Shown: positions 28,584 through 54,499 of the stretch, in pieces | Layout: every line of letters starts with the position of its first letter | How positions within the stretch are numbered: position 1 is the first letter of the stretch | Assembly (NCBI GenBank): GCA_028717885.1 | Contig: JAQUMX010000001.1 | Span: 42,409-106,408, forward strand | Length of the DNA stretch: 64,000 nt | From: Candidatus Omnitrophota bacterium | GTDB lineage: Bacteria; Omnitrophota; Gorgyraeia; Gygaellales; Profunditerraquicolaceae | Direction of reading: 5' to 3' | The notes under the pieces: generated by a model | Seen by the model: the letters and a program-made list of their open reading frames with translations, nothing else | What the model was told of the DNA's origin: nothing | The model's database searches: none | Program-made: the position numbers and the translations under genes

Positions 28584-29621
28584 TCAACAGATTCGCGGCA
28601 ATGGTTCGCTGGTAAGCATATCTACAACACGCCGGGTATTAAGTAAGGTGCGCAAAACGACCTTTCCCGCATGCCCATTTACTACGGAACCGATAACCCT
28701 GGCATTTTTAGCTAAAGCGTGTTTGCGCAAAGAGCTTAAAACCTTATTAGCTGCGCTTTGGCGCACAATCAGAATCGCAGCCCCTTCATTAGCAACATAT
28801 AAAGGGTCAATACCCAGGAGTTCGCAAGCAGCCCTTACTTGAGGGCTAAGCGGAATATTTTTTTCTTCGATCTCGATTCCCAGGTGGATAGCTTGCGTTA
28901 CTTCATTCAAAGTAGTGGCGATCCCGCCCCGGGTAGGATCACGCATGAATTTTACGGCATTGGTCTTCTTTAATAAAGGCAGCAATAAATGATTTAAAGC
29001 TGCGCAGTCGCTTTTGATACGAAAATCGAACTCCAGAGAGCGCCTGCGGGTTAATACTGCTAAACCGTGTTGGCCGATATTGCCGGTAATAATAATTTTA
29101 TCGCCCGGCGAAAGGCTTTTTAAAGATAATTTTTCTTTGCTGATCAATTTGCCGATACCCGCGGTATTAATGAAAAGTTGGTCGCAAGCGCCTCTTTCTA
29201 CCACTTTCAGGTCGCCGGTTGCGACCACTACACCGGCCTCTTTAGCGGCCCGAGAGATAGAATCAGTGATTCTTTCTAACAGGGAAAGTTCAAGCCCCTC
29301 TTCGATAATCATCGCCAAAGAAAGGTATTGCGGCTGTGCACCCATCATCACCAGGTCATTTACCGTCCCGCACACCGCAAGTTTACCAATGTCCCCTCCC
29401 GGGAAAAGTAACGGGGAGACCACAAAGGAATCCGTAGTAAAGGCTAATTTTTGCCGATAATCCAGGTAGGCGCTATCACCCAGCTCAGAGAGCACGGGAT
29501 TGTTTAGCCTGCTTAAAAAAACTTCCTTAATCAATCGGTGCGTGAGTAAACCGCCGCTACCGTGCCCTAAAAGGACTTGCTTTTTTTCCATGTTTTTTAA
29601 ACCTCTACTCCCAACGAGCAT
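28584..29621 (-). CDS. hypE: HypE-like AIR-synthase-family protein (hydrogenase maturation carbamoyl dehydratase homologue)
   Basis: 345 aa, PurM-like fold. N-terminal LLGHGSGG. C-terminus ends ...PRIC, the diagnostic HypE terminal cysteine motif. Confidence 0.8.
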   Translation of the reverse strand: MLVGSRGLKNMEKKQVLLGHGSGGLLTHRLIKEVFLSRLNNPVLSELGDSAYLDYRQKLAFTTDSFVVSPLLFPGGDIGKLAVCGTVNDLVMMGAQPQYLSLAMIIEEGLELSLLERITDSISRAAKEAGVVVATGDLKVVERGACDQLFINTAGIGKLISKEKLSLKSLSPGDKIIITGNIGQHGLAVLTRRRSLEFDFRIKSDCAALNHLLLPLLKKTNAVKFMRDPTRGGIATTLNEVTQAIHLGIEIEEKNIPLSPQVRAACELLGIDPLYVANEGAAILIVRQSAANKVLSSLRKHALAKNARVIGSVVNGHAGKVVLRTLLNTRRVVDMLTSEPLPRIC

Positions 29622-30220
29622 AAATCCGCTTCGAGTTGCTGCGCGCCCTTAAACACAAAACCCTGTATTCCCAAAGCCCGCGCACCCTCTACTAATTCCG
29701 GCCTATCGTCGGTATAAAAAGCTTTTTCTGCGGATACGCCCAGGGCTTCCAGGGCGCTGTGATAAATCGCTTCTTCGGGTTTGGTGACGCCCAGCTCAAA
29801 AGAAGTAAAGACGTGATCGAAAATAGGAAAGATCGGAAAGGCTCTTTTTAGGTATTCGAAGTGCAGGGTATTCACATTAGAAAGCACTGCTGTTTTATAA
29901 CGGCCTCTTAGCGAACTGGCAATAGAAAAAACCGCGCGGTTCTTGGCGCTAAAGAAAAAAATCTCGTTCCAAATCGGTAAGAATGTATTAAAATCCATCT
30001 TTAGATTCAAAGCCTGTTTTACCTGTGCGAAAAATTCATCCGGCGTGACTCTCCCCGCCTCGAAAAGAGTAGTGATCTGGGAATTAAAAAATAAACTGTA
30101 AATCTGTTTTCCGCTTTTTTCGCAAAAATTTGACATTCTATCCGCCGCGAGCATATGGTCAAAATCGATTAAAACATTGCCCAAATCAAAAATTATCGCT
30201 TCTATTTTTCCGTCAACCAT
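29597..30220 (-). CDS. HAD-superfamily hydrolase
   Basis: Motif I IIFDLGNVL (DxG); 207 aa. Confidence 0.6.
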   Translation of the reverse strand: MVDGKIEAIIFDLGNVLIDFDHMLAADRMSNFCEKSGKQIYSLFFNSQITTLFEAGRVTPDEFFAQVKQALNLKMDFNTFLPIWNEIFFFSAKNRAVFSIASSLRGRYKTAVLSNVNTLHFEYLKRAFPIFPIFDHVFTSFELGVTKPEEAIYHSALEALGVSAEKAFYTDDRPELVEGARALGIQGFVFKGAQQLEADLCSLGVEV

Positions 30221-31248: not shown

Positions 31249-31257
31249 AGTTGAAAA

Positions 31258-32382
31258 TTAAAATTGGTAATTCTCCAAAAACCCTTGCAGGATCTGAGCC
31301 CCCTTATAGAGGTTTGCGATTTCCACGTATTCATTCGCGCTATGCGCGCACCCTGCCGAGCCAAACCCGGTTGCCACTGCCGGGATATTTTTTTCCTTAA
31401 AAAACGTAATCACCGTAGCCCCTTCCGAGCCTTTTATTTTTGGCCGTACCCTGCAATCTGTAACAGCCTTTTTTAACTGCCTTACCAAAGCGTGGCCCTC
31501 GGGGATCTCATACGGCTGTTGTATCCCTTCGATTTCGATTTTAAATCTTTTCGCGTACTTCTTTATGATCTGCTTTAACTCCGCTAATAACTTTCCTGCC
31601 CGCATTCCAGGCAAGAACCTGAAATCCAGCTCAATCTCGCACCAGTCGGCAACTACGTTCACCTTATCTCCTCCTTTAATCGTTCCGGTATTTACCGTCG
31701 GAGGCCTTAAGTATTTATTTTTCTTAAACACGGACTTCTTTGTTTTTAATTCCTTTAAAATATTTGCCGCTATATCAATCGCATTTATTCCGCGCCACGG
31801 GTAAGCGCCGTGGCTGCGCTTTCCGCTAATCTTAATTTTTAGATGCATCAATCCTTTTTGAGTGACAATAATATCGAACTCATCGGCGTCTAAAATCAAT
31901 GCTACATCCGGCTTTAATACCCCTTTCTTTAAGAGAGGAATCAGCCCCAGGCCCGGACCTGATTCTTCATCGGCAGTAGCGGCAAAGATTAAGTCATAAC
32001 CTAAAACTTTTTTCTCTTCTGCCAGGCTCCTGATTACTTCCAGGCTAACCGCAAGGTTACATTTACAATCCGTAGCTCCCAGGCCATAGATTTTTCCCCG
32101 ATGAATCCGCGCGGCAAAAGGCGGGAATTTCCAATTATTGCCTGCTGGCACGGTATCCAGGTGCGGAGTAATTAACAGGGAGCGCTTTGACTGCTTACCT
32201 TTTATTCGCGCAATGATATTCGGCCTGTTTTTCGCAAAACTATAAATGCGGCTGCGCACCCCGCAATCAGCGAGGTATTTTTTCACGAACCGCACAATTT
32301 TAACTTCATTGCCAGCCGGGTTTTCGGAATTAATCCGGATCAAATCCTGGGCCAGCTTAATCAGCCGGTTTTTATTAATCAT
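31258..32382 (-). CDS. M20-family metallopeptidase / deacylase (ArgE/DapE-like)
   Basis: ITPHLDTVPAG and GATDCKCNLAV metal-binding motifs; 374 aa. Confidence 0.75.
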   Translation of the reverse strand: MINKNRLIKLAQDLIRINSENPAGNEVKIVRFVKKYLADCGVRSRIYSFAKNRPNIIARIKGKQSKRSLLITPHLDTVPAGNNWKFPPFAARIHRGKIYGLGATDCKCNLAVSLEVIRSLAEEKKVLGYDLIFAATADEESGPGLGLIPLLKKGVLKPDVALILDADEFDIIVTQKGLMHLKIKISGKRSHGAYPWRGINAIDIAANILKELKTKKSVFKKNKYLRPPTVNTGTIKGGDKVNVVADWCEIELDFRFLPGMRAGKLLAELKQIIKKYAKRFKIEIEGIQQPYEIPEGHALVRQLKKAVTDCRVRPKIKGSEGATVITFFKEKNIPAVATGFGSAGCAHSANEYVEIANLYKGAQILQGFLENYQF

Positions 32383-32389
32383 TTTTTAT

Positions 32390-33118
32390 TTAGAAGCTAT
32401 AGTTTATACTTCCTGCGAAGGCATCGCTGTCAAACGCCTGGCCTTCCAGGTTAAGCCAAAATTTTTTACCTAAGGGAATATTGATCCCGTAAATAAAGCC
32501 GATGTCTTTGGTAAAATCCGACATGCGGCGCTTCTTCTCTCCGTTTACAGTGTGGATATAATCCACTCTTGACCAGCGTGTCCCCAGGTATGGGCTAAAT
32601 TCCTTAATATCATAAGAAACCAACAAAGAGGTCTGCCAGTCGTCAAGGATCGCCTGATTCTTGATAGTGCCTAATTCTACGCTTTTTGGATGCACGCTAA
32701 TATGCTGGAAACCAAAAACCATCCTCCAATTATTTTTATCGAGGAATTTTAGCCGCAAACCATACCCCCCGGCAAAACTCGAAGGGTACACCACTTCGTC
32801 GCTGGTATAAGGATGCTGCTTGATGTTGCCTCCGCCAGCCTTTAGATCGATAGAAAACCAGTCAAAAATTCCGTAGGACATCCCGTAAAACTGCTGCTGG
32901 TTCCTCATCGTGCCATGGCTATCTTCCAGGTATCTTTTAAACAGGCTATAGGATTCGAAATTAGCGAAAAATTTATTCCGCTTCGGCAGCTTCGTTCCGT
33001 AACAAGGAGCAGCTAAAGAAAACTCCGAAACACAAAATATTAAGCTCAAAATAAAAACCAAAATCCGCAACTTTACCCTAAAGGGCATTCTTCGCAACGC
33101 GGCCTCCTTTTTGAACAA
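32390..33118 (-). CDS. Small outer-membrane beta-barrel-type protein
   Basis: Signal peptide; alternating hydrophobic strands; terminal ...GSINYSF. Confidence 0.35.
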   Translation of the reverse strand: MFKKEAALRRMPFRVKLRILVFILSLIFCVSEFSLAAPCYGTKLPKRNKFFANFESYSLFKRYLEDSHGTMRNQQQFYGMSYGIFDWFSIDLKAGGGNIKQHPYTSDEVVYPSSFAGGYGLRLKFLDKNNWRMVFGFQHISVHPKSVELGTIKNQAILDDWQTSLLVSYDIKEFSPYLGTRWSRVDYIHTVNGEKKRRMSDFTKDIGFIYGINIPLGKKFWLNLEGQAFDSDAFAGSINYSF

Positions 33119-33705
33119 AAATCTTTAGCTAACCTTACTAAAAGCGCGTGGTATTCATTGAATAATTCCGGTTGGTTTTTTAAATTACGCATAAACAGGT
33201 TTTGCACTTCGCCGTAAGTAGCATCTGCCTTAATAAGCTTATGCCGCAAGAGGATGCGCTTAGTATAAGCATCGACTACAAAAACCGGCTTATTTAACGC
33301 ATACAAAAGGATCGAATCCGCGGTTTCCGGGCCTATGCCTTTTACCATAAGCAGGGCATTACGTAAATCATAAGTATCGCCTGCGGACATCTTTTTCGCA
33401 TTGCCCTGGTGCCGGGAAAAGAAAAATTCTAAAAAAATCTTCAGCCTTCGCGCTTTCAGATGATAAAAACCGCTTGGCTTGATTAATGCCGCAAGCTCCG
33501 GCTCTTTTAATGCCTGCAGCTTTTTTGCGCTTAAGGCTTTTTTCTTTTTCAGGTTGGCAATTGCCTTTTCCACATTCTGCCAGCTGGTGTTTTGCGTAAG
33601 GATCGCGCCGACCATTACTTCAAAAGGGCTTTTAGCCGGCCACCAGTGTTGCGGCCCGAAATAGCGGTAGAGCTTTTTATAAAAAGAGCTTAAAATTTTT
33701 TGCAT
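33073..33705 (-). CDS. HhH-GPD DNA glycosylase (endonuclease III-related)
   Basis: LMVKGIGPETADSIL helix-hairpin-helix and a catalytic-Asp region. C-terminal Cys residues (CSKRRPRCEECPLG) suggest a [4Fe-4S] loop. Confidence 0.7.
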   Translation of the reverse strand: MQKILSSFYKKLYRYFGPQHWWPAKSPFEVMVGAILTQNTSWQNVEKAIANLKKKKALSAKKLQALKEPELAALIKPSGFYHLKARRLKIFLEFFFSRHQGNAKKMSAGDTYDLRNALLMVKGIGPETADSILLYALNKPVFVVDAYTKRILLRHKLIKADATYGEVQNLFMRNLKNQPELFNEYHALLVRLAKDFCSKRRPRCEECPLG

Positions 33706-33708
33706 TGC

Positions 33709-35655
33709 TTAAGCTTCCAACGGATTATAATTATAGTAGGCAAAAATCGTATAGGCAGTGCCGGAAACACACCCCGTAGAATTACCCTTGGGCGTCATCC
33801 ATCCGTGCCCGGTATCGACAAAACTCTGCGTGGCAAAAGGCAAACAGCTCTGCCCGGATGAATGGGCGCTGGAGATCGTCATTTTTTCCAGAGTTGCCAG
33901 ATTATCATCTGCTTTCATTTCATAAAGATGGCCCTTGGCCTTAAGCCCTTTTTTATAATAGTATTCCGACATAATTTTATAGGCGACGACCATCTGCGCG
34001 GTCCACTCCGAAGAAATCACTCCTCCTCGCGCTAAATTTTGCTCCGGGGCAAAATCAAAACCTCTTAATTTAACGCTGTAGCCTTCGGGCCGGCAAAAGA
34101 CTACTTCAGCGCTGCAAAATTCTTGCGCTAACTCAATAATCCTCTCCGGGTTAATCCCTAATTCTTCCAGTTTTTCCGGGCCAATGGCGGCAATAGACCA
34201 GGCATAGGTATCGGTGGCGATAATGGCACCGGATTTTTCTTTTTTGATCGCTGCATCGGATTGTTCATACACATGTTTTAACAACCATTTCAATACGCTG
34301 TCTGCTGCCGTACGGTATTCCTGCTTGCCGGTAATTTTATAGAGCATATTGAAAAACGCGTAAGCATCAAGATTATGGTCCGCGGCGAACCATTCGATAT
34401 TCCTGCCTCCACGGATGCCTCCGTCGCTATCCTGGAGGCCGATCACTGCGCGGGCAATCTCTTCAGCTAATCCCAAATAAGTTTTATCCTGGCTTTTTTT
34501 GGTATATTGCAATATACCAATCCCCAGCCAAAGATTTGACCCGCTTTGCACGGATAATTCTGCCGGAGAGCCGCTTTCCGCATAGTAAGCGTTCATAAAC
34601 ATGCCGTTCACTCTTTTGGCCTTTTGCGCAAAAAAATCCAGGATCATTTGCGCCCTTTCGAAATCCGCAAAATTAGTATAGGCCTGGAGCGCCAAAGATT
34701 GATCGTAAATAAACGCCCAATTCTTAATATTGCTTTCGCCTTCAAAACTGATCACCAGCCCCGTAGAGCCATCCTGGCGTTTCTTGAGCCACTGGTACAT
34801 CTTTTCCAGGTTGGCTTTTTCCAGCTGCGCCTTTTTCTTATCCAGGTGCAACAATTCCTCTGCAACACCGTTCTCTTTTTTCTGCACTGCGATTAATTCT
34901 GCCTGCAACCTTTCTTTATCGGCGGATAATTTGTCGACGAGGGAAAAAATTTCCGCTTTTCTTTGTTCGAATTTTTTCTTATCCGCTGTTTTAGGAACTC
35001 CTAAATATTTCTTCTCCTCTTCCAACAAGACTTGCAGCCTGGAATCGGAATTCTGGATTTCCAGTTCCAACTGCGCGCGCTGGCGTGCCAACTCCTTTAC
35101 TTTTTGCTTGGCAATGCTCGATTCCTGGACAATACCTACCAATTGATGCACCAAAGCGCGGTTACCTTTAATCAATTTTATATTCAACCAGGTCCCCATG
35201 ACAAAAACCGATGCCAGGAACGCAATTAAACCCAGGGAAACAGGAAGAAAAAGTTTTTTTGCCCTGGCGTAGCGTATGAAGAGCATGTTTTTCTTTTCAT
35301 CCATCTCTTCGAAATGCACACCTACCAGGAATTTCTCTATGCCCTGCGAGGGTTCCTCCATCCAGGCAATCCTGCCTACTGCGGGAATCTCTTTATCCAG
35401 AAAAGGAAGTTCGATTTTTAAAGATAAATCCGCGCGCTGCTGGCGTAATACGACCACCCACTCCGCGCAAAGGTTATTTATTTCCAGGCATAACCCATCT
35501 TGGCTGACGTTGCGCGTAAACCCTTGCAGCCAGTCGGAAAGAAAAATATCCCAACGGTCCCTGCCGACTAAGGCAAATTGTACGGGAAATACCGTATCGA
35601 GCCTGATGTATTTTCTGCGGTCCGCAAAGACAGATTGTTTTTTACGCCAGATCAT
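33709..35655 (-). CDS. PilZ-domain protein fused to a TM segment, coiled coil and a C-terminal (alpha/alpha)6 glycosidase-like domain
   Basis: N-terminal RKYIRLD...NVSQDGLCLE (PilZ RxxxR/DxSxxG motifs); TM helix LPVSLGLIAFLASVFVMGTW; heptad-rich segment; C-terminal ~330 aa with a six-hairpin-glycosidase-like pattern. Confidence 0.55.
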   Translation of the reverse strand: MIWRKKQSVFADRRKYIRLDTVFPVQFALVGRDRWDIFLSDWLQGFTRNVSQDGLCLEINNLCAEWVVVLRQQRADLSLKIELPFLDKEIPAVGRIAWMEEPSQGIEKFLVGVHFEEMDEKKNMLFIRYARAKKLFLPVSLGLIAFLASVFVMGTWLNIKLIKGNRALVHQLVGIVQESSIAKQKVKELARQRAQLELEIQNSDSRLQVLLEEEKKYLGVPKTADKKKFEQRKAEIFSLVDKLSADKERLQAELIAVQKKENGVAEELLHLDKKKAQLEKANLEKMYQWLKKRQDGSTGLVISFEGESNIKNWAFIYDQSLALQAYTNFADFERAQMILDFFAQKAKRVNGMFMNAYYAESGSPAELSVQSGSNLWLGIGILQYTKKSQDKTYLGLAEEIARAVIGLQDSDGGIRGGRNIEWFAADHNLDAYAFFNMLYKITGKQEYRTAADSVLKWLLKHVYEQSDAAIKKEKSGAIIATDTYAWSIAAIGPEKLEELGINPERIIELAQEFCSAEVVFCRPEGYSVKLRGFDFAPEQNLARGGVISSEWTAQMVVAYKIMSEYYYKKGLKAKGHLYEMKADDNLATLEKMTISSAHSSGQSCLPFATQSFVDTGHGWMTPKGNSTGCVSGTAYTIFAYYNYNPLEA

Positions 35656-38030
35656 TTGATTTTTTCTAAAATTGCCCTTTGTTTGATTTTTTTCGCTAAA
35701 TTTTCGAAGAAAGCCTTAAAATCCTGGTAATCCGCTTCTTTTACGTATTCCTGTTTTAAAGCGACTCTTTGGCTGACTAAAAGTTTATTCCCTTGCCGGC
35801 TGTAGGCGATATTAAACCTTATCCAGGGGCTATCTTCATTGATCGTTTCCGGTATATATTTTATAGCAAAATTGCCCGGAATTGCAATCTCGAAATCCGA
35901 TTCTTTGGTTTCCGGAGAACCGAAGTCGATCGGGTATTTACGTTTATCCCTGGCAACCAAAGAAGTGTCTAAACTGGCCAGTGCAGGCAAAATTCTTAAG
36001 GGCCCCGCGACGATCAAGTATTCCGGCCCGTTAAAAGAATAGTCCAATTCTACGGGAGTATTCAAGTCATCCAGGTTCTTAATCTGATAATCGCCGAGTT
36101 TTGCTCCGATGGAAATATCCTGGATTTTTTCTTTTAGCGCCTCGGCAATAAGCTCCGGCGGAGTATAAAGCAGCCAGTACCGTTGCGCCTGGTCGTAAAT
36201 ACCAAATGTCGAATTCGTCTTTTGCGCAAAAATGCTCTCATCGGGCTTCACCGAAATTTTCAGGCTCTGCTTTACCAGGTTATGCTCTGCAGCAAACATG
36301 GGGGTAGGCTCTATAGAATACCCTTCCGGCTTAAAAATAAGCACCTTGCGGTTCTGGTCTCCTTGGGGCAGGTCCCCAAAAGAACAGGTCTGGGCTGTTG
36401 AATCCATAAATACGGTTTTTCCGCCCAAAGCAATCGCTGCGATAGCATGATTAAATAACATCGAAGGAAAATCATCGTTCAAGTTATAATATTCCTTGGT
36501 CGAAATCAAGAGCGGCCATGCCGAGAACCCGGCTTCCCTTAACATAGTTACCAAAAGAATGGCTTTATCTTTACAATCGCCGTATTTATTTTTAAAAGTA
36601 TCTACGGCGAAATGCGGCTCATATCCGGCCTGGCCATATTCTACGGCCACATAACGGATCTCCTGGCAGCAAAAATTATAGATCTGCCTGATTTTTCCTT
36701 CGGGGTCTTTTTGGTTCTTAATCAATTCCCGGACCTTGGATTTGATAGCGTCATCCGCCCGGATTTTATCTTTTGCCAGCCCCCACCACCAATCGAAAAT
36801 TTCCTGCCAACTGCCAAAAGTCGAAAGCATTATCGTAGGATTGATTTCCACTTCCGGAGGCATATTTGCTTCCGGCAGGATTTGCGGGATTTTTTTAAAT
36901 TGCCAATGGTAAACTACCCTGTTGCTTTCTTCGCTTACCTTGGGGCTTAAATCTGCGCCAAAATCATTGAATTTTTCGTTGAGGATCTTTCTTTGCAGCT
37001 TCAAAGTTTTTGGCAATTCCAAGTTAAAATCCGCAAGTAATATCGGGTCGGCCGTTTGCACGGGAAAACCTAAGACAATATCTTTTTTATTAATCAGCTG
37101 GTTACGGATGATTTTTACCTTATACTCGATCACTGCGCCTTCGGTTACTTCCGGAAAAGAAATAATATAAACGTGGGCATTACTGTAAAGCGGGAAATTC
37201 AGGTATTTGGAAACATCGCGGATATGCCGGGAGCCGACCTCAACCACAGTCCCGTCCGGCTTAATAGTGCGGGCATAATCCAATTCTATCCTTTCGAAGG
37301 TGGAATCATAGTCGATCTGGCTTTCGGCGTAGTTTTGTTTGCCTCTTTCATTAAGGATCTTGACCAAATAATGCAGCTCCGAAATTTCTTTTGCGTCCTG
37401 CGTAACCTTGATTTTTTCATCGGAGAGCAGGATAATCCCTCCTGCCTGAGGGTATTCTTTCTCCGAAGGCGCTTGTTCTATGATGCGGCTGACTTCAGGG
37501 CTGACTTCTTTGATATTCGCCAAACTCGATTGCATTTCGATAGAATCAACGCGCCCCTGTGCCAATAGCTTAAATTTTCCCGCAGCGATTTTTTGATAAG
37601 CCTTTAATGCCGTATCAAATAAGTTGAGTTTTTCCGCAGTCAAGCCATAGTAGTAGCTGCTTTCATCATCGAGAAAGCCGTCTTTACTAAAAAGGTCGAG
37701 CGCTTCGCTAAAATTCGACGCGTAATAATAGGCGATTGCCAGGTATTTTTTTGCTGCCTCAGACTGCGAATGTTTTAATTCCAGGATCGCGTTGTTATAA
37801 TCACCGTGCGCAAAATACAATTTCCCTAACTCGAAATAGATTCGGTCCAAGTCTTTTCCTTGGGCGATTAAACTCTTATAGGCAGAAATTGCCTGCTGGT
37901 AATACTGCTGGGAGATCTTGGTATATTCTTGCGCTTGACTATCGTCTTTAATTTGCTTACAACCCAAAAATAACAAACTCAAAGACAAAAATAAAACTAA
38001 CTTTAACTTAACGGTATCGATAATACGCAT
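35652..38030 (-). CDS. Transglutaminase-like cysteine-protease-superfamily protein with N-terminal TPR repeats (DUF3857/transglutaminase/DUF3858 layout)
   Basis: Core YGDCKDKAILLVTMLREAGF (catalytic Cys). TPR-like N-terminus after a lipoprotein-type signal (LFLGC). Confidence 0.7.
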   Translation of the reverse strand: MRIIDTVKLKLVLFLSLSLLFLGCKQIKDDSQAQEYTKISQQYYQQAISAYKSLIAQGKDLDRIYFELGKLYFAHGDYNNAILELKHSQSEAAKKYLAIAYYYASNFSEALDLFSKDGFLDDESSYYYGLTAEKLNLFDTALKAYQKIAAGKFKLLAQGRVDSIEMQSSLANIKEVSPEVSRIIEQAPSEKEYPQAGGIILLSDEKIKVTQDAKEISELHYLVKILNERGKQNYAESQIDYDSTFERIELDYARTIKPDGTVVEVGSRHIRDVSKYLNFPLYSNAHVYIISFPEVTEGAVIEYKVKIIRNQLINKKDIVLGFPVQTADPILLADFNLELPKTLKLQRKILNEKFNDFGADLSPKVSEESNRVVYHWQFKKIPQILPEANMPPEVEINPTIMLSTFGSWQEIFDWWWGLAKDKIRADDAIKSKVRELIKNQKDPEGKIRQIYNFCCQEIRYVAVEYGQAGYEPHFAVDTFKNKYGDCKDKAILLVTMLREAGFSAWPLLISTKEYYNLNDDFPSMLFNHAIAAIALGGKTVFMDSTAQTCSFGDLPQGDQNRKVLIFKPEGYSIEPTPMFAAEHNLVKQSLKISVKPDESIFAQKTNSTFGIYDQAQRYWLLYTPPELIAEALKEKIQDISIGAKLGDYQIKNLDDLNTPVELDYSFNGPEYLIVAGPLRILPALASLDTSLVARDKRKYPIDFGSPETKESDFEIAIPGNFAIKYIPETINEDSPWIRFNIAYSRQGNKLLVSQRVALKQEYVKEADYQDFKAFFENLAKKIKQRAILEKIK

Positions 38031-39096
38031 TGCAAGCTCCTTCTCGAGAAACCATACAAGGCCCGACCGGCTGCTCCGGCCGACAGGCGTTTTTGAATAA
38101 CGGGCAATCTAACGGAGAAGCTAATCCTCTTAAGATATCGCTGCATTTACACTTCGTAAGGCGTAAAGCGTTTGGCGTAATGCGCCTGATCTTAAAAATT
38201 TTTTGCGCGTCAAAGTCCGTAAATTCTTTAGCCAAATTTAACCCGCTATCGGGGATTCTTCCCAATGAACGCCAAATGCTGTCGCTTTGCACAAAGGCTT
38301 TACGCATGATTTTCTGCGCTTGAATGTTCCCCTGGGCGGTCACCACACGCCGGTATTGATTTTCTACCCGGGGTTTATTTTCAACTATTTGGCGTAACAA
38401 TAGATACAATCCTTCTAAAATATCCAAAGGCTCAAAACCGGCAATACAGCAGGCGGCCTTAAATTTTTTTGGGATGAAGGCATATGGCCTTGTGCCGATA
38501 ATCGCACTTACATGCCCCGGGCAAAGAAAACCATTAAGTTTAAGCCTTTTATCCTTAAGCAGATATTCCATAGCAGGAGGAATAAGCTTTAAGGAGGAAA
38601 GGAAAAAAAGGTTCTTTATTTTTTCTTTTCGCGCCTGCAAAATCGTAGCGGCAATTGTCGGAGCAGTAGTTTCAAAGCCTACTGCCAAAAAAATTATCCT
38701 TTTCCCGGGGTTCTTTTTTGCCAGGTTGATAGTTTCCAGTGGCGAATAAACTATTTCTACCCGGGCAGAATTTGCCCGTTCCTGCTCCAGGCTGGATTTA
38801 CTTCCGGGGATACGCAACATATCGCCGAAAGTAGCAATAATAGCTTGTTTTTCCCTGGCCAGAAAAATCGCATTATCAATGTATTCTACCGGGCTAACGC
38901 AGACCGGGCATCCCGGCCCGGAAATAAGCCTTAGGCCTTTCGGCAGCAATTTATCCAAACCGAACCTGCAGAAGTTCTGAGTATGCGTACCGCAGACCTC
39001 CATAAGATTTATTCGGCCTGCGGGCATAATCCGCCGGATTTGGGCTGCTATTCTCTTTGCCAATCTTAAATTACGGAATTCATCAACGTATTTCAT
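38008..39096 (-). CDS. hypD: Hydrogenase maturation factor HypD homologue
   Basis: MKYVDEFR...MEVCGTHT (CGxH) and GPGCPVC motifs; 362 aa. Confidence 0.85.
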   Translation of the reverse strand: MKYVDEFRNLRLAKRIAAQIRRIMPAGRINLMEVCGTHTQNFCRFGLDKLLPKGLRLISGPGCPVCVSPVEYIDNAIFLAREKQAIIATFGDMLRIPGSKSSLEQERANSARVEIVYSPLETINLAKKNPGKRIIFLAVGFETTAPTIAATILQARKEKIKNLFFLSSLKLIPPAMEYLLKDKRLKLNGFLCPGHVSAIIGTRPYAFIPKKFKAACCIAGFEPLDILEGLYLLLRQIVENKPRVENQYRRVVTAQGNIQAQKIMRKAFVQSDSIWRSLGRIPDSGLNLAKEFTDFDAQKIFKIRRITPNALRLTKCKCSDILRGLASPLDCPLFKNACRPEQPVGPCMVSREGACNAYYRYR

Positions 39097-39292
39097 CTAT
39101 CAGCCTTAAAGTCTCTTTCGCTTTTTGCGGATCAATTTTCTGGATCGCAAAACCTGCGTGTACCAAACAATAGTCGCCTACTTTTGCCTGAGGGAGCATA
39201 GAAATATTTATTCTACGGGTAAGCCTTCCGGTCTCTACCTCGGCAAATTCGCCCTTAATCTGTTTTATTTTCATGGGGATAGCCAAACACAT
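39083..39292 (-). CDS. hypC: HypC/HupF-family chaperone
   Basis: 69 aa beginning MCLAIP, the diagnostic N-terminal Cys2. Confidence 0.8.
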   Translation of the reverse strand: MCLAIPMKIKQIKGEFAEVETGRLTRRINISMLPQAKVGDYCLVHAGFAIQKIDPQKAKETLRLIDEIR

Positions 39293-39293
39293 C

Positions 39294-40385
39294 TTATTCC
39301 CTCGAATGGGCAGCTACTGCCACCTGGCCTAAGGATATGGAAACGTCGCTGCTCGATAAGCTCTGGTGGGTTATTGCTTTGAACTTAAGCTTACATAATA
39401 ACTCCAAAGTTAAGCCAAGTAAAAGCTTATTTTGAAAAACACCCCCGGAGAGGGCTACCTGATCAATCTCGCTTTCTTTGCGTAATTTTAGGCAGGTTTT
39501 TGCGATCATTTGCGCTATTGTGCAGTGAAACCGGAAGGCAATTTCATCTTTTGGTTTACGCTTCTCTAAATCTTCCAGGATTTGCCTGAAAATAGCTGTG
39601 GGGTCAATGATATATTGCCCTTGTTTTTTTTGAATCGTAAATTTATACTCTGCTGCCTTACCGGCATAGCAAGAAGCGGCCCTTTCTAGTTCAATCGGCA
39701 ATTCTGCTTCTTCTGCGACCTGATATTTTTTTAAAATCAGGCATCCTGCCGCATCAAAAAGCCTGCCCATGCTGCTTGCTGAGGGCGTATTTAGCCTTTG
39801 CTGCATGAGTTTTCTTAAGATACGGCATTGTTTTTGGTACTGTGCAGGCAAAACTGCGCAATTATCCCAAGCACAGACTAACCTCCAGGGCTCTAAAACA
39901 GCTTTTTCTCCCCCTAATAGCGGGATCTCTTTCAAATGCGCCTTTCTCTGATAATTCCCGTAATTACAAATCAGGAATTCCGAGCCCCAGATCGAATTAT
40001 CGCTGCCTAACCCCGTACCATCAAAAGCTACCCCGATAATTTTACGGTTAGTTAAGCCATTTTCCGCCATACAAGCGGCAATATGTGCGTGATGGTGCTG
40101 CACCGCAAAAAAACTATAACTCCCGCGGCCCAGGCTTAAGGCGAATTTACTGGATTGATAATCCGGATGCAAATCATAAGCAATAATTTTTGGTTTCTGG
40201 CGCAAAAAATACCTTGCCTCTTTTTCAAAAACTGTCAAATCATCCGGGTCGCTTAAATCATTGTGCGCTGTAGCAAGAAAAGCGGCCCTGCCCCGGGCAA
40301 AACAAAGGGTATTTTTAGTTTGCGCCCCAAAACCAAGCACTGCTTTATCCGCTGCAAATGGCAGAGGTATTTTTTTTAGTTTCAT
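39294..40385 (-). CDS. HypF-like carbamoyltransferase comprising only the C-terminal Kae1/ASKHA domain (no acylphosphatase, Zn-finger or YrdC domains)
   Basis: 363 aa. VLGFGAQTKNTLCFARG... and the HypF metal-site motif VQHHHAHIAACMAE. The start overlaps the upstream gene's stop, leaving no room for the N-terminal domains. Confidence 0.7.
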   Translation of the reverse strand: MKLKKIPLPFAADKAVLGFGAQTKNTLCFARGRAAFLATAHNDLSDPDDLTVFEKEARYFLRQKPKIIAYDLHPDYQSSKFALSLGRGSYSFFAVQHHHAHIAACMAENGLTNRKIIGVAFDGTGLGSDNSIWGSEFLICNYGNYQRKAHLKEIPLLGGEKAVLEPWRLVCAWDNCAVLPAQYQKQCRILRKLMQQRLNTPSASSMGRLFDAAGCLILKKYQVAEEAELPIELERAASCYAGKAAEYKFTIQKKQGQYIIDPTAIFRQILEDLEKRKPKDEIAFRFHCTIAQMIAKTCLKLRKESEIDQVALSGGVFQNKLLLGLTLELLCKLKFKAITHQSLSSSDVSISLGQVAVAAHSRE

Positions 40386-41137
40386 TTTCGTAATAAAAGC
40401 TGGTATCTGTTCAGAAACCTTCTGCTTACCCGGCCGGCTTTGCCTCCGGAAATTGATTTCGCCCCCAAACGCGTCAAAGGCATAACCCCCATCAGAGAAT
40501 TAGTCAAAAACGCTTCATTGCAAGCTGCTAAATCTTCCAGGGTAAAATTACCTTCGTATATATTTAGCCCGTCTTTCTTGGCAAAATCAAAAATTAATCT
40601 ACGGATTACTCCGGGCAGGCAACCGTTAGCTAAGGCAGGCGTAAAAAGCTCACCACTTAAGCGAAAGAAAATATTGCTCCTCGCACCTTCGCAGATATTG
40701 CCGCGCTGATTCAGGATAATCGCCTCATCAAAGCCTTTCTTCCTTGCTTCCTGCAAACTTAAATTATAAAGTGCACGATTGGTGGACTTGATGCGCGCAG
40801 ACAAACAACGTTCATCCTGGCGTAAAGATGAAGTTATCGCGGAAAAGCCTTTTTGGTATCTTTGCGCTGAAAATGGCTGATACGCTGTTGCAGAAACAAA
40901 AATCTCTGCTCCGGAAGGGGCTGCCTCGAGGACTACTCGCACCCGGGCATCGTTTAAACAGTTTAGCTTAACTGTGGCATAAATTTCATTCTCTAACTGC
41001 CTGCGGCTGACAGGCAGTTTTAAATTGATTAACTTAGCCGATAGCCTCAAGCGTTCCAGGTGCCAATCTAAATGCACAATTTTCCCCCGCAAGCAACGCA
41101 TAGTTTCGAATAGCCCGCTAATCTTCTTAATCTCCAT
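40382..41137 (-). CDS. Class IV (fold-type IV) PLP enzyme, aminodeoxychorismate lyase-like
   Basis: 251 aa; size, colinearity and position directly after pabB. Confidence 0.55.
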   Translation of the reverse strand: MEIKKISGLFETMRCLRGKIVHLDWHLERLRLSAKLINLKLPVSRRQLENEIYATVKLNCLNDARVRVVLEAAPSGAEIFVSATAYQPFSAQRYQKGFSAITSSLRQDERCLSARIKSTNRALYNLSLQEARKKGFDEAIILNQRGNICEGARSNIFFRLSGELFTPALANGCLPGVIRRLIFDFAKKDGLNIYEGNFTLEDLAACNEAFLTNSLMGVMPLTRLGAKSISGGKAGRVSRRFLNRYQLLLRK

Positions 41138-42434
41138 AAATCGCCTCTAATATGCCTTTAGCCTTCACCAGGGTTTCTTGATACCCCTCTAAAGGCTTAG
41201 AATCCGCAACGATGCCTCCGCCGGCCCAGAAATAAAGATTATTTCCTCTTTTTAAAATTGTCCTGATCAGAATATTAAAATCCATCCTGCCGCAAAAACT
41301 CAAATAGCCTAAGACGCCCGTATAAGCCAAGCGCTTATTAGGCTCCAGTTCTTTGATTATCTCCATGGCGCGGATTTTCGGGCATCCGGTGATAGAGCCG
41401 CCAGGAAAACAAGCGCGTAAAAGATCGAACCTGTCGCAATCGCGAAAAAGCCTGCCTTCAATAGTAGCGGTAGTCTGGTAGACCGTACGGTAAGCTTCTA
41501 ACTGCCTTAATTTACTTACCTTGATCGAATTATAATCGCATACCCTTCCTAAGTCATTTCTTTCCAAATCCACGATCATAGTCAATTCTGCTTTATCCTT
41601 AGCGCTCTTTAAAAGTTCCAGCTTCAAGGCTCTATCTTTTTTGGCGTCTAAATGGCGCGGCCGCGTGCCTTTCATGGGAACCGTACTTACTTTCCCCTGG
41701 GACAATTTCAGGAAGCGCTCCGGAGAAGAACTTAAAATCTGATGGTCCCCGGCATCGAAATACGCGGCAAAAGGCGCAGGGCTTGATTTTCTTAAACGTA
41801 AATAAATTTCTGCTGCCGATAGGTTTGTCCGGGCAAAGAAACGCTGGGAAAGGTTAACCTGATAAATGTCCCCTTGCCGGATATATTCTTTCGCCTTTTT
41901 TACCGCAGCCAGGTAATCGGCCTTCCTGAAATTAGATTCCAATTGGCTAGCTTGAGGCGCTTGTTTTTTATTCTCTCGCGTAACATTTGTTGCAAAGATT
42001 ATTTTTTCCGCTTTATCTAAATTCGATTCTGCCAAAATTTTGGCTAAAGAAGCGTTCTTTTCCGGAAAACCCGTACAGCAAATTAAAATCCTGCGCGTAA
42101 AATTATCTAAGGCAATTACCGTATTATAAAAATTAAAAATGCCTCCCGAATCATACCCCATATAGCCCACTGCGCCACCGATAAAAGGCGGAGCTCCGGG
42201 ATGCGCCTCTAATGAATATTCCCGGCTTGCTTTAGCCAATTCCCGGAAAGGGTCATGGCTTCTTTTTAATCTTATCTTAAGGAACGGCTCAAATCCCAGG
42301 AAAGAATACCTTGCGCTCTCGCGATTGGCCAACCCGGAATCCAAAAAAAACAAATCAGGATAACCGCAGAGCCGCTTAAAAATAGCTGCAGGGTCGAATT
42401 TTGGCTTATACGATTTCCAAATGAAGTATGCCAT
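41127..42434 (-). CDS. pabB: Chorismate-binding enzyme, aminodeoxychorismate synthase component I-like
   Basis: 435 aa; C-terminal FPGGSITGCPK chorismate-binding signature. Confidence 0.75.
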   Translation of the reverse strand: MAYFIWKSYKPKFDPAAIFKRLCGYPDLFFLDSGLANRESARYSFLGFEPFLKIRLKRSHDPFRELAKASREYSLEAHPGAPPFIGGAVGYMGYDSGGIFNFYNTVIALDNFTRRILICCTGFPEKNASLAKILAESNLDKAEKIIFATNVTRENKKQAPQASQLESNFRKADYLAAVKKAKEYIRQGDIYQVNLSQRFFARTNLSAAEIYLRLRKSSPAPFAAYFDAGDHQILSSSPERFLKLSQGKVSTVPMKGTRPRHLDAKKDRALKLELLKSAKDKAELTMIVDLERNDLGRVCDYNSIKVSKLRQLEAYRTVYQTTATIEGRLFRDCDRFDLLRACFPGGSITGCPKIRAMEIIKELEPNKRLAYTGVLGYLSFCGRMDFNILIRTILKRGNNLYFWAGGGIVADSKPLEGYQETLVKAKGILEAIYGD

Positions 42435-43227
42435 CTATTCTGAAAGAACGTTCCTCATTGCGTAAAGAACAGTAACCGATAACATAGCTGACTCCTCTTT
42501 CCTGCTTGATTTCCCTAGGAGTTACCTGCCTTTCCGTAACCTGGGCATTTACCGAAGAAAGGTATTTAATCTTTAATTTCATTTCCCGGGCAATTGCTTC
42601 CTCGATTTCAGCGATTCTCTGGGCATTTAAGTCCTGCAGGAATTGCGGGTTAAGCGAAAAAAGGCGGGAAAAATTCCTAAAATCGCTTACCCCCTGGGAA
42701 ATCAACTTTTCTTTTAAGTGTTTAAAAACCAACCAGGTAATCTCTACGTCGGAAAGCGCCCGGTGCTGCTGTTGCTGCTTGATTCCTAAATGCTGCACCA
42801 CAAACCAAAGCGCATAGCGCTCTAATTTAGGTAAGAGCCTTCTCGCCATTTTTAAAATATCCAGGACAATGATCTCTTTAGGAAATTCACTTTTAATAAT
42901 CCTGGCTTCATTTTGCATGAATTCCAGGTCAAAAGAGGCATTGTAGGAACAAATACAGCTGCCTGCGATAAATTTCAAGAATTCCGGCATTACCTCTGTA
43001 ATCTTCGGCGCATCCCGAAGCATTTCTTTACTGATTTTATTTACCGCGAAGGCCCCAGGAGAAACTTCTCTTTCCGGATTAACCAAGGAGGAAAAAACAG
43101 CCAGCTTTTCTTCTCCCTTAAACCTGATTGCCGCGATCTCTACCACCCGGTCTCCTGCCCGCGGCTCTAATCCGGTAGTTTCCGTATCAAAAATAGTGAA
43201 TTCTACTTCTTCAATTAGCCTGTCCAT
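42406..43227 (-). CDS. DEDDh 3'-5' exonuclease (DnaQ/epsilon-like) with C-terminal extension
   Basis: Exo I motif FTIFDTETTGL, Exo II and III (HRALSD) motifs; 273 aa. Confidence 0.75.
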   Translation of the reverse strand: MDRLIEEVEFTIFDTETTGLEPRAGDRVVEIAAIRFKGEEKLAVFSSLVNPEREVSPGAFAVNKISKEMLRDAPKITEVMPEFLKFIAGSCICSYNASFDLEFMQNEARIIKSEFPKEIIVLDILKMARRLLPKLERYALWFVVQHLGIKQQQQHRALSDVEITWLVFKHLKEKLISQGVSDFRNFSRLFSLNPQFLQDLNAQRIAEIEEAIAREMKLKIKYLSSVNAQVTERQVTPREIKQERGVSYVIGYCSLRNEERSFRIDGILHLEIV

Positions 43228-44122
43228 TTTTTTTCACGATTAACGCGGGAATCAGCCTGAGCGGCTTGTAAGAAAATTTTACCTGCTCAAGATTTTTTAA
43301 ACCGGAATCATCCATTACATTGATATATTTAAAATTTTTTGCCCGAACGCAGAATTCCTGAAAAATAAATTGCGCTATCCCCTTAAAAGAAAGGTCAGCC
43401 ACTTCATAGAGGACGCAAAATGTTTGCCGGTTTAATTTATAGCCTACGGTAAAAGCACGCACCTTTCCTCTGACTTTCACTACCAACCCTTCACAGCCCA
43501 GTGAATCGAAATTACGCAACAAAACTTTTAAAGCACTAAAGCTATCTTCCAGCATTCCCTGATAAACATGATCGCAATTTAGTTTAGCGCGCTGCTTTGC
43601 CCAGGCGTGATATAAATTAAGGCATTCATTGCGATGAGAATTCTTGAGGCTATCGACTTGAAATTCATTATGCTTTAAAAAGTAGTTTTTGCTGGAACGC
43701 TTAGATTTAAATTTATTCCCTTTTAATTCTGCCAGGTCACTGCGCGCACAAAGGTAATCAGAGGATTTCTTTTCGATAGATAGCCCCAGAGAGCGGTAAA
43801 AATCCAAATCCTTCTCTTCTACGTTTTCGATGCGGGAAATTTCCTTGTTTTTGTTCAATCCATCCAGTGTTTTAAAAATCTCCTGGACCAAACCGGGGGT
43901 TAATTTTTTTGTGAGCGGCCCCAGGTATAAAAATATACCGAAATTGTCCTTAAAAAAAATGCAGAGGCTCTCTTGAACTAAAGCCCAATATATCCGGAAC
44001 AACCCTTTCCAGATATAAATATCGGCAAAAGAATAAACAGCAAGCTCGTGGCTGGATAGTTTTAAAAAACGCTCGACAAGTGACTTATTCCGGAGTGTCA
44101 GCCTATTTAGTTTCATCCTCAA
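43211..44122 (-). CDS. DUF2156-like (MprF C-terminal / aa-tRNA-dependent GNAT-fold transferase-like) protein; assignment tentative
   Basis: 303 aa. Size and bipartite pattern resemble DUF2156. No strong motif could be verified by eye. Confidence 0.3.
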   Translation of the reverse strand: MRMKLNRLTLRNKSLVERFLKLSSHELAVYSFADIYIWKGLFRIYWALVQESLCIFFKDNFGIFLYLGPLTKKLTPGLVQEIFKTLDGLNKNKEISRIENVEEKDLDFYRSLGLSIEKKSSDYLCARSDLAELKGNKFKSKRSSKNYFLKHNEFQVDSLKNSHRNECLNLYHAWAKQRAKLNCDHVYQGMLEDSFSALKVLLRNFDSLGCEGLVVKVRGKVRAFTVGYKLNRQTFCVLYEVADLSFKGIAQFIFQEFCVRAKNFKYINVMDDSGLKNLEQVKFSYKPLRLIPALIVKKNGQAN

Positions 44123-44609
44123 TATTTAATTCAATAATTTCGGAAACTTCTTCGTAAGCAACAAGGAGCTGGGGATTTTCGTGTAAAATCTTTTTTTGCT
44201 CCGGAGAGTCAAGGAAAGCGGCCAGGTATTCGCTGTAATCTTTGAATTCTTTACTCTTTAAATTTTCTTTGACGTAAGGGCAATTCAAATCTACGGTCAA
44301 GAGCACTTTTTTATTGCGTAAATTGATTAAAAACGGATACAGCTGGCATTCAAACGGCCGGCAGGAATAGATACGGCATTGGTTTTGCCTATTTAAAAAC
44401 GGGCAGATAAAACCTTCCCCCTCGGGGTTAGCAACAGGATTGATCCTTTTATTCAAAGAAATCGTGCAGGCAGGCAAATTTTCTTTCTCTAAAAGCGCCT
44501 GTACTTCCTCGTCCAAAAGGCAGGGCGCCCAGACGGAATTCTCCTCCCGAAACCTGCAGCAGCCTTGGCATTTTAAACAAATTTCCTGAGGGACAAATTG
44601 CTCTATCAT
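44103..44609 (-). CDS. YkgJ-family Cys-cluster protein (CxxCxxCC)
   Basis: N-terminal CLKCQGCCRF plus additional Cys (CPFLNRQNQCRIYSCRPFECQLYP). Confidence 0.6.
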   Translation of the reverse strand: MIEQFVPQEICLKCQGCCRFREENSVWAPCLLDEEVQALLEKENLPACTISLNKRINPVANPEGEGFICPFLNRQNQCRIYSCRPFECQLYPFLINLRNKKVLLTVDLNCPYVKENLKSKEFKDYSEYLAAFLDSPEQKKILHENPQLLVAYEEVSEIIELNIEDETK

Positions 44610-44995
44610 TTTACGACGCTTCCTAATTTAACCTCTTTTTGCGGGCTAACTACCACAATCCCGTTTTCATCGGAAGCAGCCAGGATCATCCCCTGGCTTT
44701 CCACTCCCCGTAAGATCGCCGGCTCTAAATTATCTACGACTACCACTAATTTCCCGACTAAGTCTTCTTTTTGATAATAGGCCCTGATGCCTGCCACAAC
44801 CTGTTTCTGCCTATCGCCTAAGTCCAAAGTCAAAAGATAAAGCTTATCCGCATTCGGATGATCCAGGACTTCCTTGATTTTGGCGACCCTTAATTCCAAT
44901 TTTCGAAAATCTTCGATTGTAATCATTAAAGTCCTCCCTATTTTTCTTTTTTTAACTAAAGCTGAACGGAATTTATTTATGCGGGGAGCCGTCAA
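44606..44995 (-). CDS. tRNA-binding-domain protein (Trbp111/CsaA/EMAP-II-like OB fold)
   Basis: 129 aa with LELRVAKIKEVLDHPNADKLYLLTLDLGD...QVVAG, the hallmark of the standalone tRNA-binding domain. Confidence 0.7.
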   Translation of the reverse strand: MTAPRINKFRSALVKKRKIGRTLMITIEDFRKLELRVAKIKEVLDHPNADKLYLLTLDLGDRQKQVVAGIRAYYQKEDLVGKLVVVVDNLEPAILRGVESQGMILAASDENGIVVVSPQKEVKLGSVVK

Positions 44996-46925: not shown

Positions 46926-46934
46926 ACCACCCTC

Positions 46935-54496: not shown

Positions 54497-54499
54497 CTG

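What the first reader, a model, noticed from the sequence alone, without database searches (positions are those of the whole stretch)
38008..40385. hypD-hypC-hypF(Kae1-domain only) without any hydrogenase; HypF lacks the acylphosphatase, Zn-finger and YrdC domains
- **Window content:** canonical Ni-Fe hydrogenase maturation needs HypF with all four domains, and the genes normally sit beside hydrogenase structural genes. Here HypC, HypD and HypE (at 28584-29621) are present, but no hydrogenase large or small subunit, hypA or hypB occurs in 64 kb.
- **Truncated HypF:** the HypF homologue is only the C-terminal Kae1-like carbamoyltransferase domain (HHHAH metal motif intact). Its start overlaps the preceding pabC-like gene, so the truncation is genuine in this assembly.
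- **Possible interpretation:** this may be a split hydrogenase-maturation pathway, or a Fe(CN)/thiocyanate-type chemistry repurposed for another target.
Basis: partly seen in the sequence, partly recalled or inferred. Interest (0 to 1): 0.7.

Follow-up and report, generated by a model that had tools for sequence, protein, structure and literature searches.

The report
Short HypF with HypC, HypD, HypE
This Omnitrophota bacterium carries intact nickel-iron hydrogenase maturation genes, including a naturally short HypF, that most likely serve a hydrogenase encoded elsewhere in its genome, so the finding is real but largely ordinary.

Summary
On the minus strand lie a 363-aa HypF made only of the Kae1-like carbamoyltransferase domain (39294-40385), HypC (39083-39292), HypD (38008-39096) and, 9 kb downstream, HypE (28584-29621). 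All catalytic motifs are intact. Nothing in the 64 kb resembles a hydrogenase subunit, HypA, HypB, a maturation protease or the HypF N-terminal half.

The truncation is not an assembly fault or decay:
- The 120 closest homologues are all 353-398 aa, and those carrying a source name are labelled Candidatus Omnitrophica/Omnitrophota.
- They form one Kae1-only clade in a neighbour-joining tree.
- The metal and nucleotide residues are invariant.

The architecture is already known. Cupriavidus necator HypF1 (394 aa) has the same two Pfam domains and the same boundary.

The window belongs to a relative of the family Profunditerraquicolaceae. The type genome of Sherwoodlollariibacterium unditelluris carries the same locus, and the species is described as encoding a Group 4g [NiFe] hydrogenase.

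My best reading is an ordinary Fe(CN)2CO assembly set, unlinked from its hydrogenase. HypF would do only the carbamoyl transfer to HypE. The source of carbamoyl-adenylate is unknown. I could not scan this genome for the hydrogenase or for a separate N-terminal HypF module.

The parts
39294..40385 (-). hypF' : stand-alone Kae1-like carbamoyltransferase domain of HypF (363 aa). It lacks the acylphosphatase, Zn-finger and YrdC-like domains.
   Evidence: It matches PF17788 (residues 13-108) and PF22521 (118-354), and aligns to TIGR00143 positions 382-740 of 741 at 233 bits, below the full-length cutoff of 466. It aligns to PDB 3VTH HypF residues 400-745 with E=8e-63. The AlphaFold model has pLDDT 93.4 and superposes on the HypF Kae1 domain with TM 0.90 and rmsd 2.1 A. 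H97, H98, H101, D122-G125 and D347 are invariant in 50 homologues.
39083..39292 (-). hypC: Fe(CN)2CO chaperone (69 aa)
   Evidence: It matches PF01455 (E=2e-26) and TIGR00074 at 74.9 bits, above the cutoff of 48. The N-terminus reads MCLAIP, with the essential Cys2.
38008..39096 (-). hypD: Fe-S scaffold for Fe(CN)2CO assembly (362 aa)
   Evidence: It matches PF01924 (E=2e-144) and TIGR00075 at 458 bits, above the cutoff of 193. The motifs CGTHT, GPGCPVC, GFETT and PGHVS and the C-terminal Cys cluster are all present.
28584..29621 (-). hypE: carbamoyl dehydratase that forms the Cys-thiocyanate (345 aa). It lies 9 kb downstream in the same conserved collinear block.
   Evidence: It matches TIGR02124 at 443 bits, above the cutoff of 252, plus the AIRS and AIRS_C domains. 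The C-terminus ends in PRIC. It sits at the same relative position in L002, L003 and L007.
40382..41137 (-). pabC-like class IV aminotransferase. It is the upstream neighbour whose stop codon overlaps the hypF' start. It is not part of the hyp system.
   Evidence: It matches PF01063 (E=7e-62) and shows the ATGA overlap. pabB and pabC are absent upstream of hypF' in L007 and L010, so the linkage is incidental.

Best explanation
These are working [NiFe]-hydrogenase maturation genes of an Omnitrophota bacterium close to the family Profunditerraquicolaceae (GTDB Koll11/GIF10/UBA6249).

**Proposed mechanism**
- HypF' is a natural, lineage-wide Kae1-only form of HypF. It transfers a carbamoyl group from carbamoyl-adenylate to the C-terminal cysteine of HypE (PRIC).
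- HypE dehydrates this to a thiocyanate.
- HypC-HypD accept the cyanide and build the Fe(CN)2CO unit.
- That unit is delivered to a [NiFe] hydrogenase large subunit encoded elsewhere in the genome, most likely a Group 4g membrane-bound enzyme.

**Shown**
- The gene identities and intact motifs.
- Conservation of the short form among its closest homologues (120 of 120), those with a source name being Omnitrophota.
- The absence of hydrogenase genes nearby.
- The same locus in a species reported to have a 4g hydrogenase.

**Inferred**
- That this particular genome has the hydrogenase.
- That the first half-reaction (carbamoyl phosphate plus ATP giving carbamoyl-AMP) is supplied in trans. The supplier could be a separately encoded YrdC-type protein or another source.
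For: - **Family membership:** the HypC, HypD and HypE scores lie above the NCBIfam equivalog or subfamily cutoffs, and all catalytic motifs are present.
- **Short form is the norm:** the 120 best homologues of HypF' are all 353-398 aa and Kae1-only; every one that carries a source name is labelled Candidatus Omnitrophica/Omnitrophota, and most carry no name.
- **Single clade:** they form one pure Kae1-only clade of 25 representatives in a neighbour-joining tree that also holds 132 full-length HypFs.
- **Functional sites:** the metal and nucleotide-binding residues are invariant.
- **Fold:** the model superposes on the HypF Kae1 domain of the HypE-HypF complex 3VTI with TM 0.90.
- **Core unit:** hypF'-hypC-hypD-(...)-hypE is the only part conserved between distant Omnitrophota (L026, L053).
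- **Link to a hydrogenase:** L007 is contig PCRK01000096 of GCA_002771995.1, the type genome of S. unditelluris. It has the same locus with 56% HypF' identity. [quoted passage not shown]
- **Family pattern:** F. calida and Amyimicrobium silvilacustre, of the same family, also have 4g.
- **Co-occurrence elsewhere in the phylum:** an Omnitrophota genome in the same paper's source data carries hypA and hypCDEF KOs together with PF00374 and PF00346.
- **Precedent:** C. necator HypF1 sits in a hypA1B1F1CDE operon and has the identical domain content.
- **Published view:** it 'likely requires carbamoyl adenylate' (PMC9100943).
Against: - No hydrogenase, hypA or hypB was seen in the window or within 10 kb of hypF' in 8 Omnitrophota loci.
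- I could not search the rest of this genome.
- One named species of the family (P. sanfordiae) is described with an [FeFe] hydrogenase in the part of the text available. A [NiFe] enzyme is therefore not guaranteed in every member.
- C. necator HypF1 was inactive when tested in E. coli (PMC5350229; PMC9100943). Whether a Kae1-only HypF suffices alone is therefore unproven.
Confidence: 0.7

Rival explanations
1. Split HypF. The acylphosphatase, Zn-finger and YrdC half is encoded as a separate gene elsewhere in the genome and docks onto HypF' to restore the canonical two-site enzyme. This is a variant of the main explanation, not an alternative to hydrogenase maturation.
For: - The chemistry requires carbamoyl-AMP made by a YrdC-type site (PMC9654439).
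- YrdC and Kae1 functions are separate proteins in the homologous t6A system.
- The two Omnitrophota genomes whose Pfam lists are partly held in the paper's source data (codes 58 and 231) contain PF00708 and PF01300 domains somewhere.
Against: - No HypF N-terminal homologue lies in the window or in 11 Omnitrophota loci, about 200 kb in total.
- The PF00708 and PF01300 hits also occur in a genome without HypC (genome 58). They are therefore probably ordinary AcyP and TsaC/Sua5.
Confidence: 0.25
2. Repurposed chemistry. HypF'CDE make a cyanide or thiocyanate ligand, or an Fe(CN)x unit, for a target other than a [NiFe] hydrogenase. This genome would then have no [NiFe] hydrogenase.
For: - The hyp genes are never next to hydrogenase, hypA or hypB genes in Omnitrophota: 0 of 8 loci against 42 of 55 in other phyla, Fisher p=5e-5.
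- They sit in a block of housekeeping genes.
- Some Omnitrophota are reported with only [FeFe] hydrogenases (PMC8542988).
Against: - All residues specific to Fe(CN)2CO assembly are retained.
- Relatives with the same locus are reported to have Group 4g [NiFe] hydrogenases.
- No candidate alternative acceptor is conserved next to the genes in distant lineages.
- The Omnitrophota loci are not phylogenetically independent, since six come from one family.
Confidence: 0.07
3. A decaying duplicate or an assembly artefact. The short hypF would be a pseudogene remnant or the product of a mis-join.
For: A second assembly of the same organism (L001) shows hypD called as two pieces.
Against: - The split hypD in L001 is caused by a run of 10 N, a scaffold gap, not a mutation. 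The window copy is intact.
- HypF' has the same length and boundary in more than 120 protein clusters from independent assemblies.
- It has invariant catalytic residues and a confident complete fold.
Confidence: 0.02

Closest known systems
Cupriavidus necator (Ralstonia eutropha) H16 HypF1, megaplasmid pHG1 (WP_011153939.1, 394 aa)
   Same: - It has the identical architecture, PF17788 plus PF22521 only.
- It has the same N-terminal boundary: residues 6-373 align with window residues 8-359 at 32% identity.
- It is followed directly by hypC, hypD and hypE.
- It is described in the literature as comprising one of the three HypF domains and as likely needing carbamoyl adenylate.
   Different: - In C. 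necator it lies inside a hydrogenase/hypA1B1 operon, and the literature reports a full-length HypF2 in the same organism (PMC5350229).
- Here no hydrogenase, hypA or hypB is nearby, and the 120 closest homologues are all short.
- The two fall in separate places in the neighbour-joining tree, which suggests independent truncations.
Canonical four-domain HypF (E. coli HypF; Caldanaerobacter HypF, PDB 3VTH/3VTI)
   Same: The Kae1-like domain has the same fold (TM 0.90), 36% identity, the HxxxH...D metal site, and a HypE partner ending in PRIC.
   Different: It lacks the acylphosphatase, Zn-finger and YrdC-like domains. It therefore has no site for making carbamoyl-AMP and no internal channel. It scores 233 bits against the TIGR00143 cutoff of 466.
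TsaC/TsaD (YrdC/Kae1) t6A system
   Same: It works on the same principle: a free-standing Kae1-type transferase uses an acyl-adenylate made by a separate YrdC-type enzyme (PMC9654439).
   Different: HypF' is not a TsaD. It scores 22.5 bits on TIGR03723 against a cutoff of 296, and its structural match to TsaD/Kae1 is only TM 0.52-0.58.

Membership tests
HypF, full-length carbamoyltransferase (TIGR00143 equivalog) | Whole-protein score above the curated cutoff, with the four-domain architecture | tested here: not met
   It scores 233.1 bits against a cutoff of 466.1, and only model positions 382-740 are matched.
HypF, full-length carbamoyltransferase (TIGR00143 equivalog) | N-terminal acylphosphatase, Zn-finger and YrdC-like domains | tested here: not met
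   There is no Pfam hit other than the two C-terminal domains. An in-frame stop lies immediately upstream. No N-terminal HypF homologue occurs anywhere in the window by jackhmmer or tblastn.
HypF Kae1-like domain (PF17788 + PF22521) | Both subdomains present over their full length, with the HxxxH...D metal site and the nucleotide loop | tested here: met
   PF17788 is matched over positions 3-99 of 99 and PF22521 over 1-241 of 241. H97, H98, H101, D122-G125 and D347 are invariant. The model superposes on 3VTH/3VTI with TM 0.90.
Kae1-only HypF (C. necator HypF1 type) | Stand-alone Kae1-like domain followed by hypC-hypD-hypE | tested here: met
   HypF1 has the same Pfam content. The pairwise alignment covers both proteins end to end. 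The gene order is confirmed.
Kae1-only HypF (C. necator HypF1 type) | Carbamoylates HypE and supports hydrogenase maturation | not testable with these tools
   This needs biochemistry or genetics. HypF1 itself was inactive in E. coli.
HypC/HupF | N-terminal Met-Cys and a family score above the cutoff | tested here: met
   The N-terminus reads MCLAIP. TIGR00074 scores 74.9 bits against a cutoff of 48.
HypD | Equivalog score, the GPGCPVC, GFETT and PxHVS motifs, and C-terminal Fe-S cysteines | tested here: met
   It scores 458.2 bits against 192.8. The motifs were read directly from the translation.
HypE | Equivalog score and the C-terminal PR[IV]C cysteine | tested here: met
   It scores 442.8 bits against 251.6, and the protein ends in PRIC.
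TobZ/NodU/CmcH O-carbamoyltransferases | Carbam_trans_N/C domains, with a Kae1-like domain fused to a YrdC-like domain | tested here: not met
   There is no such Pfam hit. TobZ (3VES) matches only at TM 0.45 and rmsd 14.7 A, and it is absent from the PDB sequence hits.
[NiFe] hydrogenase gene cluster | Large and small subunit genes, hypA/hypB and a protease linked to the hyp genes | tested here: not met
   None occurs in the 64 kb window or within 10 kb of hypF' in 8 Omnitrophota loci. Presence elsewhere in the genome could not be tested.

The most novel reading that the evidence does not exclude
The Kae1-only protein is the sole HypF of the whole phylum Omnitrophota, including species that make Group 4g, 3b or 3d [NiFe] hydrogenases. 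Cyanide-ligand synthesis would then run without the covalently linked acylphosphatase, Zn-finger and YrdC modules. It would rely on a freely diffusing or trans-delivered carbamoyl-adenylate, for example from a TsaC/Sua5-type enzyme, or on another carbamoyl donor. That would overturn the view that the four-domain HypF with its internal channel is required.
Probability: 0.35. Interest if true: 0.55.

Novelty: new member of a known kind. Interest (0 to 1): 0.3.

Why it matters
The function of truncated HypF has stayed unresolved since it was seen in C. necator. There a full-length paralogue masks it, and it is inactive in E. coli. Omnitrophota appear to use only the short form while encoding [NiFe] hydrogenases. 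If that is confirmed, they offer a natural test of whether the adenylation and transfer steps of cyanide-ligand synthesis can be separated, and of what supplies carbamoyl-AMP.

For genome annotation there are two practical points:
- A 360-aa 'HypF' in these genomes is not a fragment.
- The absence of hydrogenase genes near hyp genes says nothing about their absence from the genome.

Tried and rejected
- **Extending the contig.** I looked up the terminal window genes to gain flanking sequence. This returned only short contigs of other assemblies and no new hyp or hydrogenase genes.
- **Seymour et al. supplementary tables.** I looked for per-genome hyp and hydrogenase annotation. The stored files are cut. 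They gave family taxonomy, species descriptions and one partial genome list, but no table for this MAG.
- **Genome-collection scan with the HypF' alignment.** The other 74 served as controls.
- **pabB-pabC linkage.** I considered a functional link to hypF' and rejected it. pabBC is missing upstream in L007 and L010, and the whole 17-gene block is simply collinear within the family.
- **Neighbours as substitutes for the missing HypF domains.** I considered the PAC2, HAD and M20 neighbours of hypE. They are not conserved in distant Omnitrophota, and HAD is absent in L002 and L007.
- **A conserved gene pair after hypE in L026 and L053.** I checked whether the 240-aa and 135-aa genes are HypB and HypA. 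They are not: one has no Pfam family and the other is a NIL-ferredoxin.
- **The apparent frameshift in hypD of L001.** It is a scaffold gap.
- **Searches not run.** I ran no further search on a HypF N-terminal or [NiFe] large-subunit query. Without an Omnitrophota seed, the 120 listed hits would come from other phyla and a negative result would mean nothing.
Full report
**What is in the sequence.** Nearly all genes of the 64-kb window lie on the minus strand.

- Pfam and NCBIfam identify 40385-39294 as a 363-aa protein made only of the two HypF C-terminal (Kae1-like) subdomains. It aligns to positions 382-740 of the 741-position HypF model.
- 39292-39083 is HypC, and 39096-38008 is HypD. 29621-28584 is HypE. 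The last two score far above their equivalog cutoffs.
- The translations show every residue expected for Fe(CN)2CO assembly:
  - HypC starts MCLAIP.
  - HypD has GPGCPVC, GFETT, PGHVS and the C-terminal cysteine cluster.
  - HypE ends PRIC.
  - HypF' has HHHAH.
- The hypF' start codon overlaps the stop of an upstream pabC-like gene (ATGA). It is the first start after an in-frame stop, so no longer protein is possible.

**Absence of partners in the window.** Three independent searches found no hydrogenase subunit, HypA, HypB, maturation protease, or HypF acylphosphatase/Zn-finger/YrdC region.

- Pfam scans of all ORFs of 80 aa or more.
- An iterated jackhmmer search with E. coli reference proteins over all ORFs of 50 aa or more.
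- tblastn of 297 queries against the six-frame window.

**The truncation is natural and lineage-wide.**

- The 120 best database homologues are all 353-398 aa and Kae1-only. Every one that carries a source name is labelled Candidatus Omnitrophica/Omnitrophota; most carry no name.
- In an alignment of 50 of them, the metal-binding histidines, the DGTG nucleotide loop and the C-terminal aspartate are invariant.
- The AlphaFold model is confident (pLDDT 93.4). It superposes on the Kae1-like domain of solved HypF structures, including the HypE-HypF complex, at TM 0.90. TsaD/Kae1 reach about 0.57 and TobZ 0.45.
- A search of 50%-identity cluster representatives shows many further Kae1-only proteins with native N-termini, mixed among full-length HypFs at 36-46% identity.
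- In a neighbour-joining tree of the Kae1 region, all Omnitrophota sequences form one pure Kae1-only clade of 25. That clade includes distant ones from Gorgyraia. C. necator HypF1 and other short forms fall elsewhere. The tree has no support values, so the single-origin inference is tentative.
- An apparent break in hypD in a second assembly of the same organism is a run of N, not a mutation.

**Context.**

- The organism is close to the family Profunditerraquicolaceae (class Velamenicoccia; GTDB Koll11/GIF10/UBA6249). Its closest named relatives, L007, L009, P0031 and P0064, all belong there.
- Within that family a block of about 17 genes is collinear at roughly 50-70% protein identity. The order is tRNA-binding protein, CxxCxxCC protein, LPG-synthase-C, RNase T/WYL, pabB, pabC, hypF', hypC, hypD, TPR-transglutaminase, a 650-aa protein, endonuclease III, a 240-aa protein, M20 peptidase, PAC2, HAD, hypE.
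- pabBC is missing in two relatives. In distant Omnitrophota only hypF'-hypC-hypD-(...)-hypE persists. The hyp genes are therefore the functional unit, and the rest is inherited gene order.
- In 0 of 8 Omnitrophota loci of 12 kb or more, any hydrogenase, hypA/B or protease gene lies within 10 kb. The figure is 42 of 55 for loci from other phyla, all of which have full-length HypF (Fisher p=5e-5). The Omnitrophota loci are not independent, since six come from one family.

**Is there a hydrogenase to mature?** I could not scan this genome. The indirect evidence is as follows.

- L007 is a contig of GCA_002771995.1, the type genome of Sherwoodlollariibacterium unditelluris. It carries the same locus.
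- Seymour et al. 2023 (PMC10066038) describe that species as having a Group 4g [NiFe] hydrogenase.
- Fontincolimonas calida and Amyimicrobium silvilacustre, of the same family, are described likewise. Profunditerraquicola sanfordiae is described with an A3 [FeFe] enzyme in the part of the text that is held.
- One Omnitrophota genome in that paper's source data has hypA and hypCDEF KOs together with PF00374 and PF00346.
- Williams et al. 2021 (PMC8542988) report Group 3b, 3d and 4g [NiFe] hydrogenases, or A3 [FeFe] hydrogenases only, in different Omnitrophota.

The most economical reading is that the hyp genes serve a [NiFe] hydrogenase encoded elsewhere, probably Group 4g.

**Mechanism.** In canonical HypF the steps are as follows (PMC9654439).

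- The acylphosphatase domain handles carbamoyl phosphate.
- The YrdC-like domain makes carbamoyl-adenylate.
- The Kae1-like domain transfers the carbamoyl group to the HypE cysteine through an internal channel.

HypF' has only the last site, so it can perform only the transfer. The adenylate must come from elsewhere. Candidates are a separately encoded HypF N-terminal module, a TsaC/Sua5-type YrdC protein, or an unknown donor. None is encoded in the window or in about 200 kb of related loci.

**Comparison with what is known.**

- C. necator HypF1 (394 aa) on megaplasmid pHG1 has the same two Pfam domains and the same boundary. It sits in hypA1B1F1CDE.
- It is described as comprising one of the three HypF domains and as likely needing carbamoyl adenylate (PMC9100943).
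- It was inactive in E. coli (PMC5350229).

The architecture is thus a known kind. Two things appear particular here: the closest homologues are uniformly short, and the genes are consistently unlinked from hydrogenase operons in the Omnitrophota loci examined. I found no paper describing this for Omnitrophota in the searches made. That is not proof that none exists.

**Verdict.** The finding is real but mostly explained: an intact maturation gene set with a known short HypF form, in a genome whose hydrogenase is probably elsewhere. The residual interest lies in whether the short HypF is the only one in these genomes, and in what supplies carbamoyl-AMP.

Noticed in passing
window 8509-8594 (-): A c-di-GMP-I-GGC riboswitch variant (RF03167, 62.4 bits against a gathering score of 59) lies just upstream of a 1105-aa secreted-type protein (5084-8401, -). 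That protein has subtilase S8, Big_9/cadherin-like and PKD domains.
   Followed up: no
window 44973-52200 (-): This is a gene cluster resembling a modified-peptide pathway. It holds three radical SAM proteins (382, 393 and 651 aa), a PqqD-like protein (102 aa), an S24-like peptidase (171 aa) and an ABC exporter (576 aa). Small ORFs lie in the 400-bp gap at 50068-50470 and were not evaluated as precursors.
   Followed up: partly
window 18681-21671 (-): A 996-aa fusion protein combines a GT1 glycosyltransferase, a long coiled coil and a radical SAM/SPASM domain. It sits within a large glycosyltransferase/O-antigen-type region at 11-28 kb. That region also holds a B12-binding radical SAM protein and two D-Ala-D-Ala-ligase-like ATP-grasp proteins.
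   Followed up: no
window 28584-44995; L002, L003, L007, L008, L009, L010: A block of about 17 functionally unrelated genes is strictly collinear across Profunditerraquicolaceae at only 50-70% protein identity. It is almost entirely on one strand, with overlapping or abutting genes.
   Followed up: partly
L026 9977-11115 and L053 13444-14605: In two distant Omnitrophota, hypE is followed by a conserved pair of genes. One is a 240-aa protein with no Pfam family, and the other is a 135-aa NIL-domain protein with two [4Fe-4S] motifs. A pyruvoyl-dependent arginine decarboxylase lies upstream of hypF' in L026, L053 and L092.
   Followed up: partly
L001 3020-3029 (corresponds to window 38130-38191): The second public assembly of this organism (GCA_028706935.1) has a 10-N scaffold gap replacing 62 bases inside hypD. 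As a result the gene is called there as two fragments of 301 and 39 aa.
   Followed up: yes
window 54000-56800: AT skew is unusually high (0.27 at 54-56 kb) over two Wzy_C O-antigen-ligase-like membrane proteins. A 362-aa ORF (55734-56822, -) overlaps one of them by 89 bases and was not scanned against Pfam.
   Followed up: no
P0121-P0270: Outside the Omnitrophota clade there are further groups of Kae1-only HypF with native N-termini: pure clades of 7 and 5 representatives plus singletons. One of them (P0125) lies directly after a Rex-like regulator gene. Short HypF forms therefore seem to have arisen several times.
   Followed up: partly
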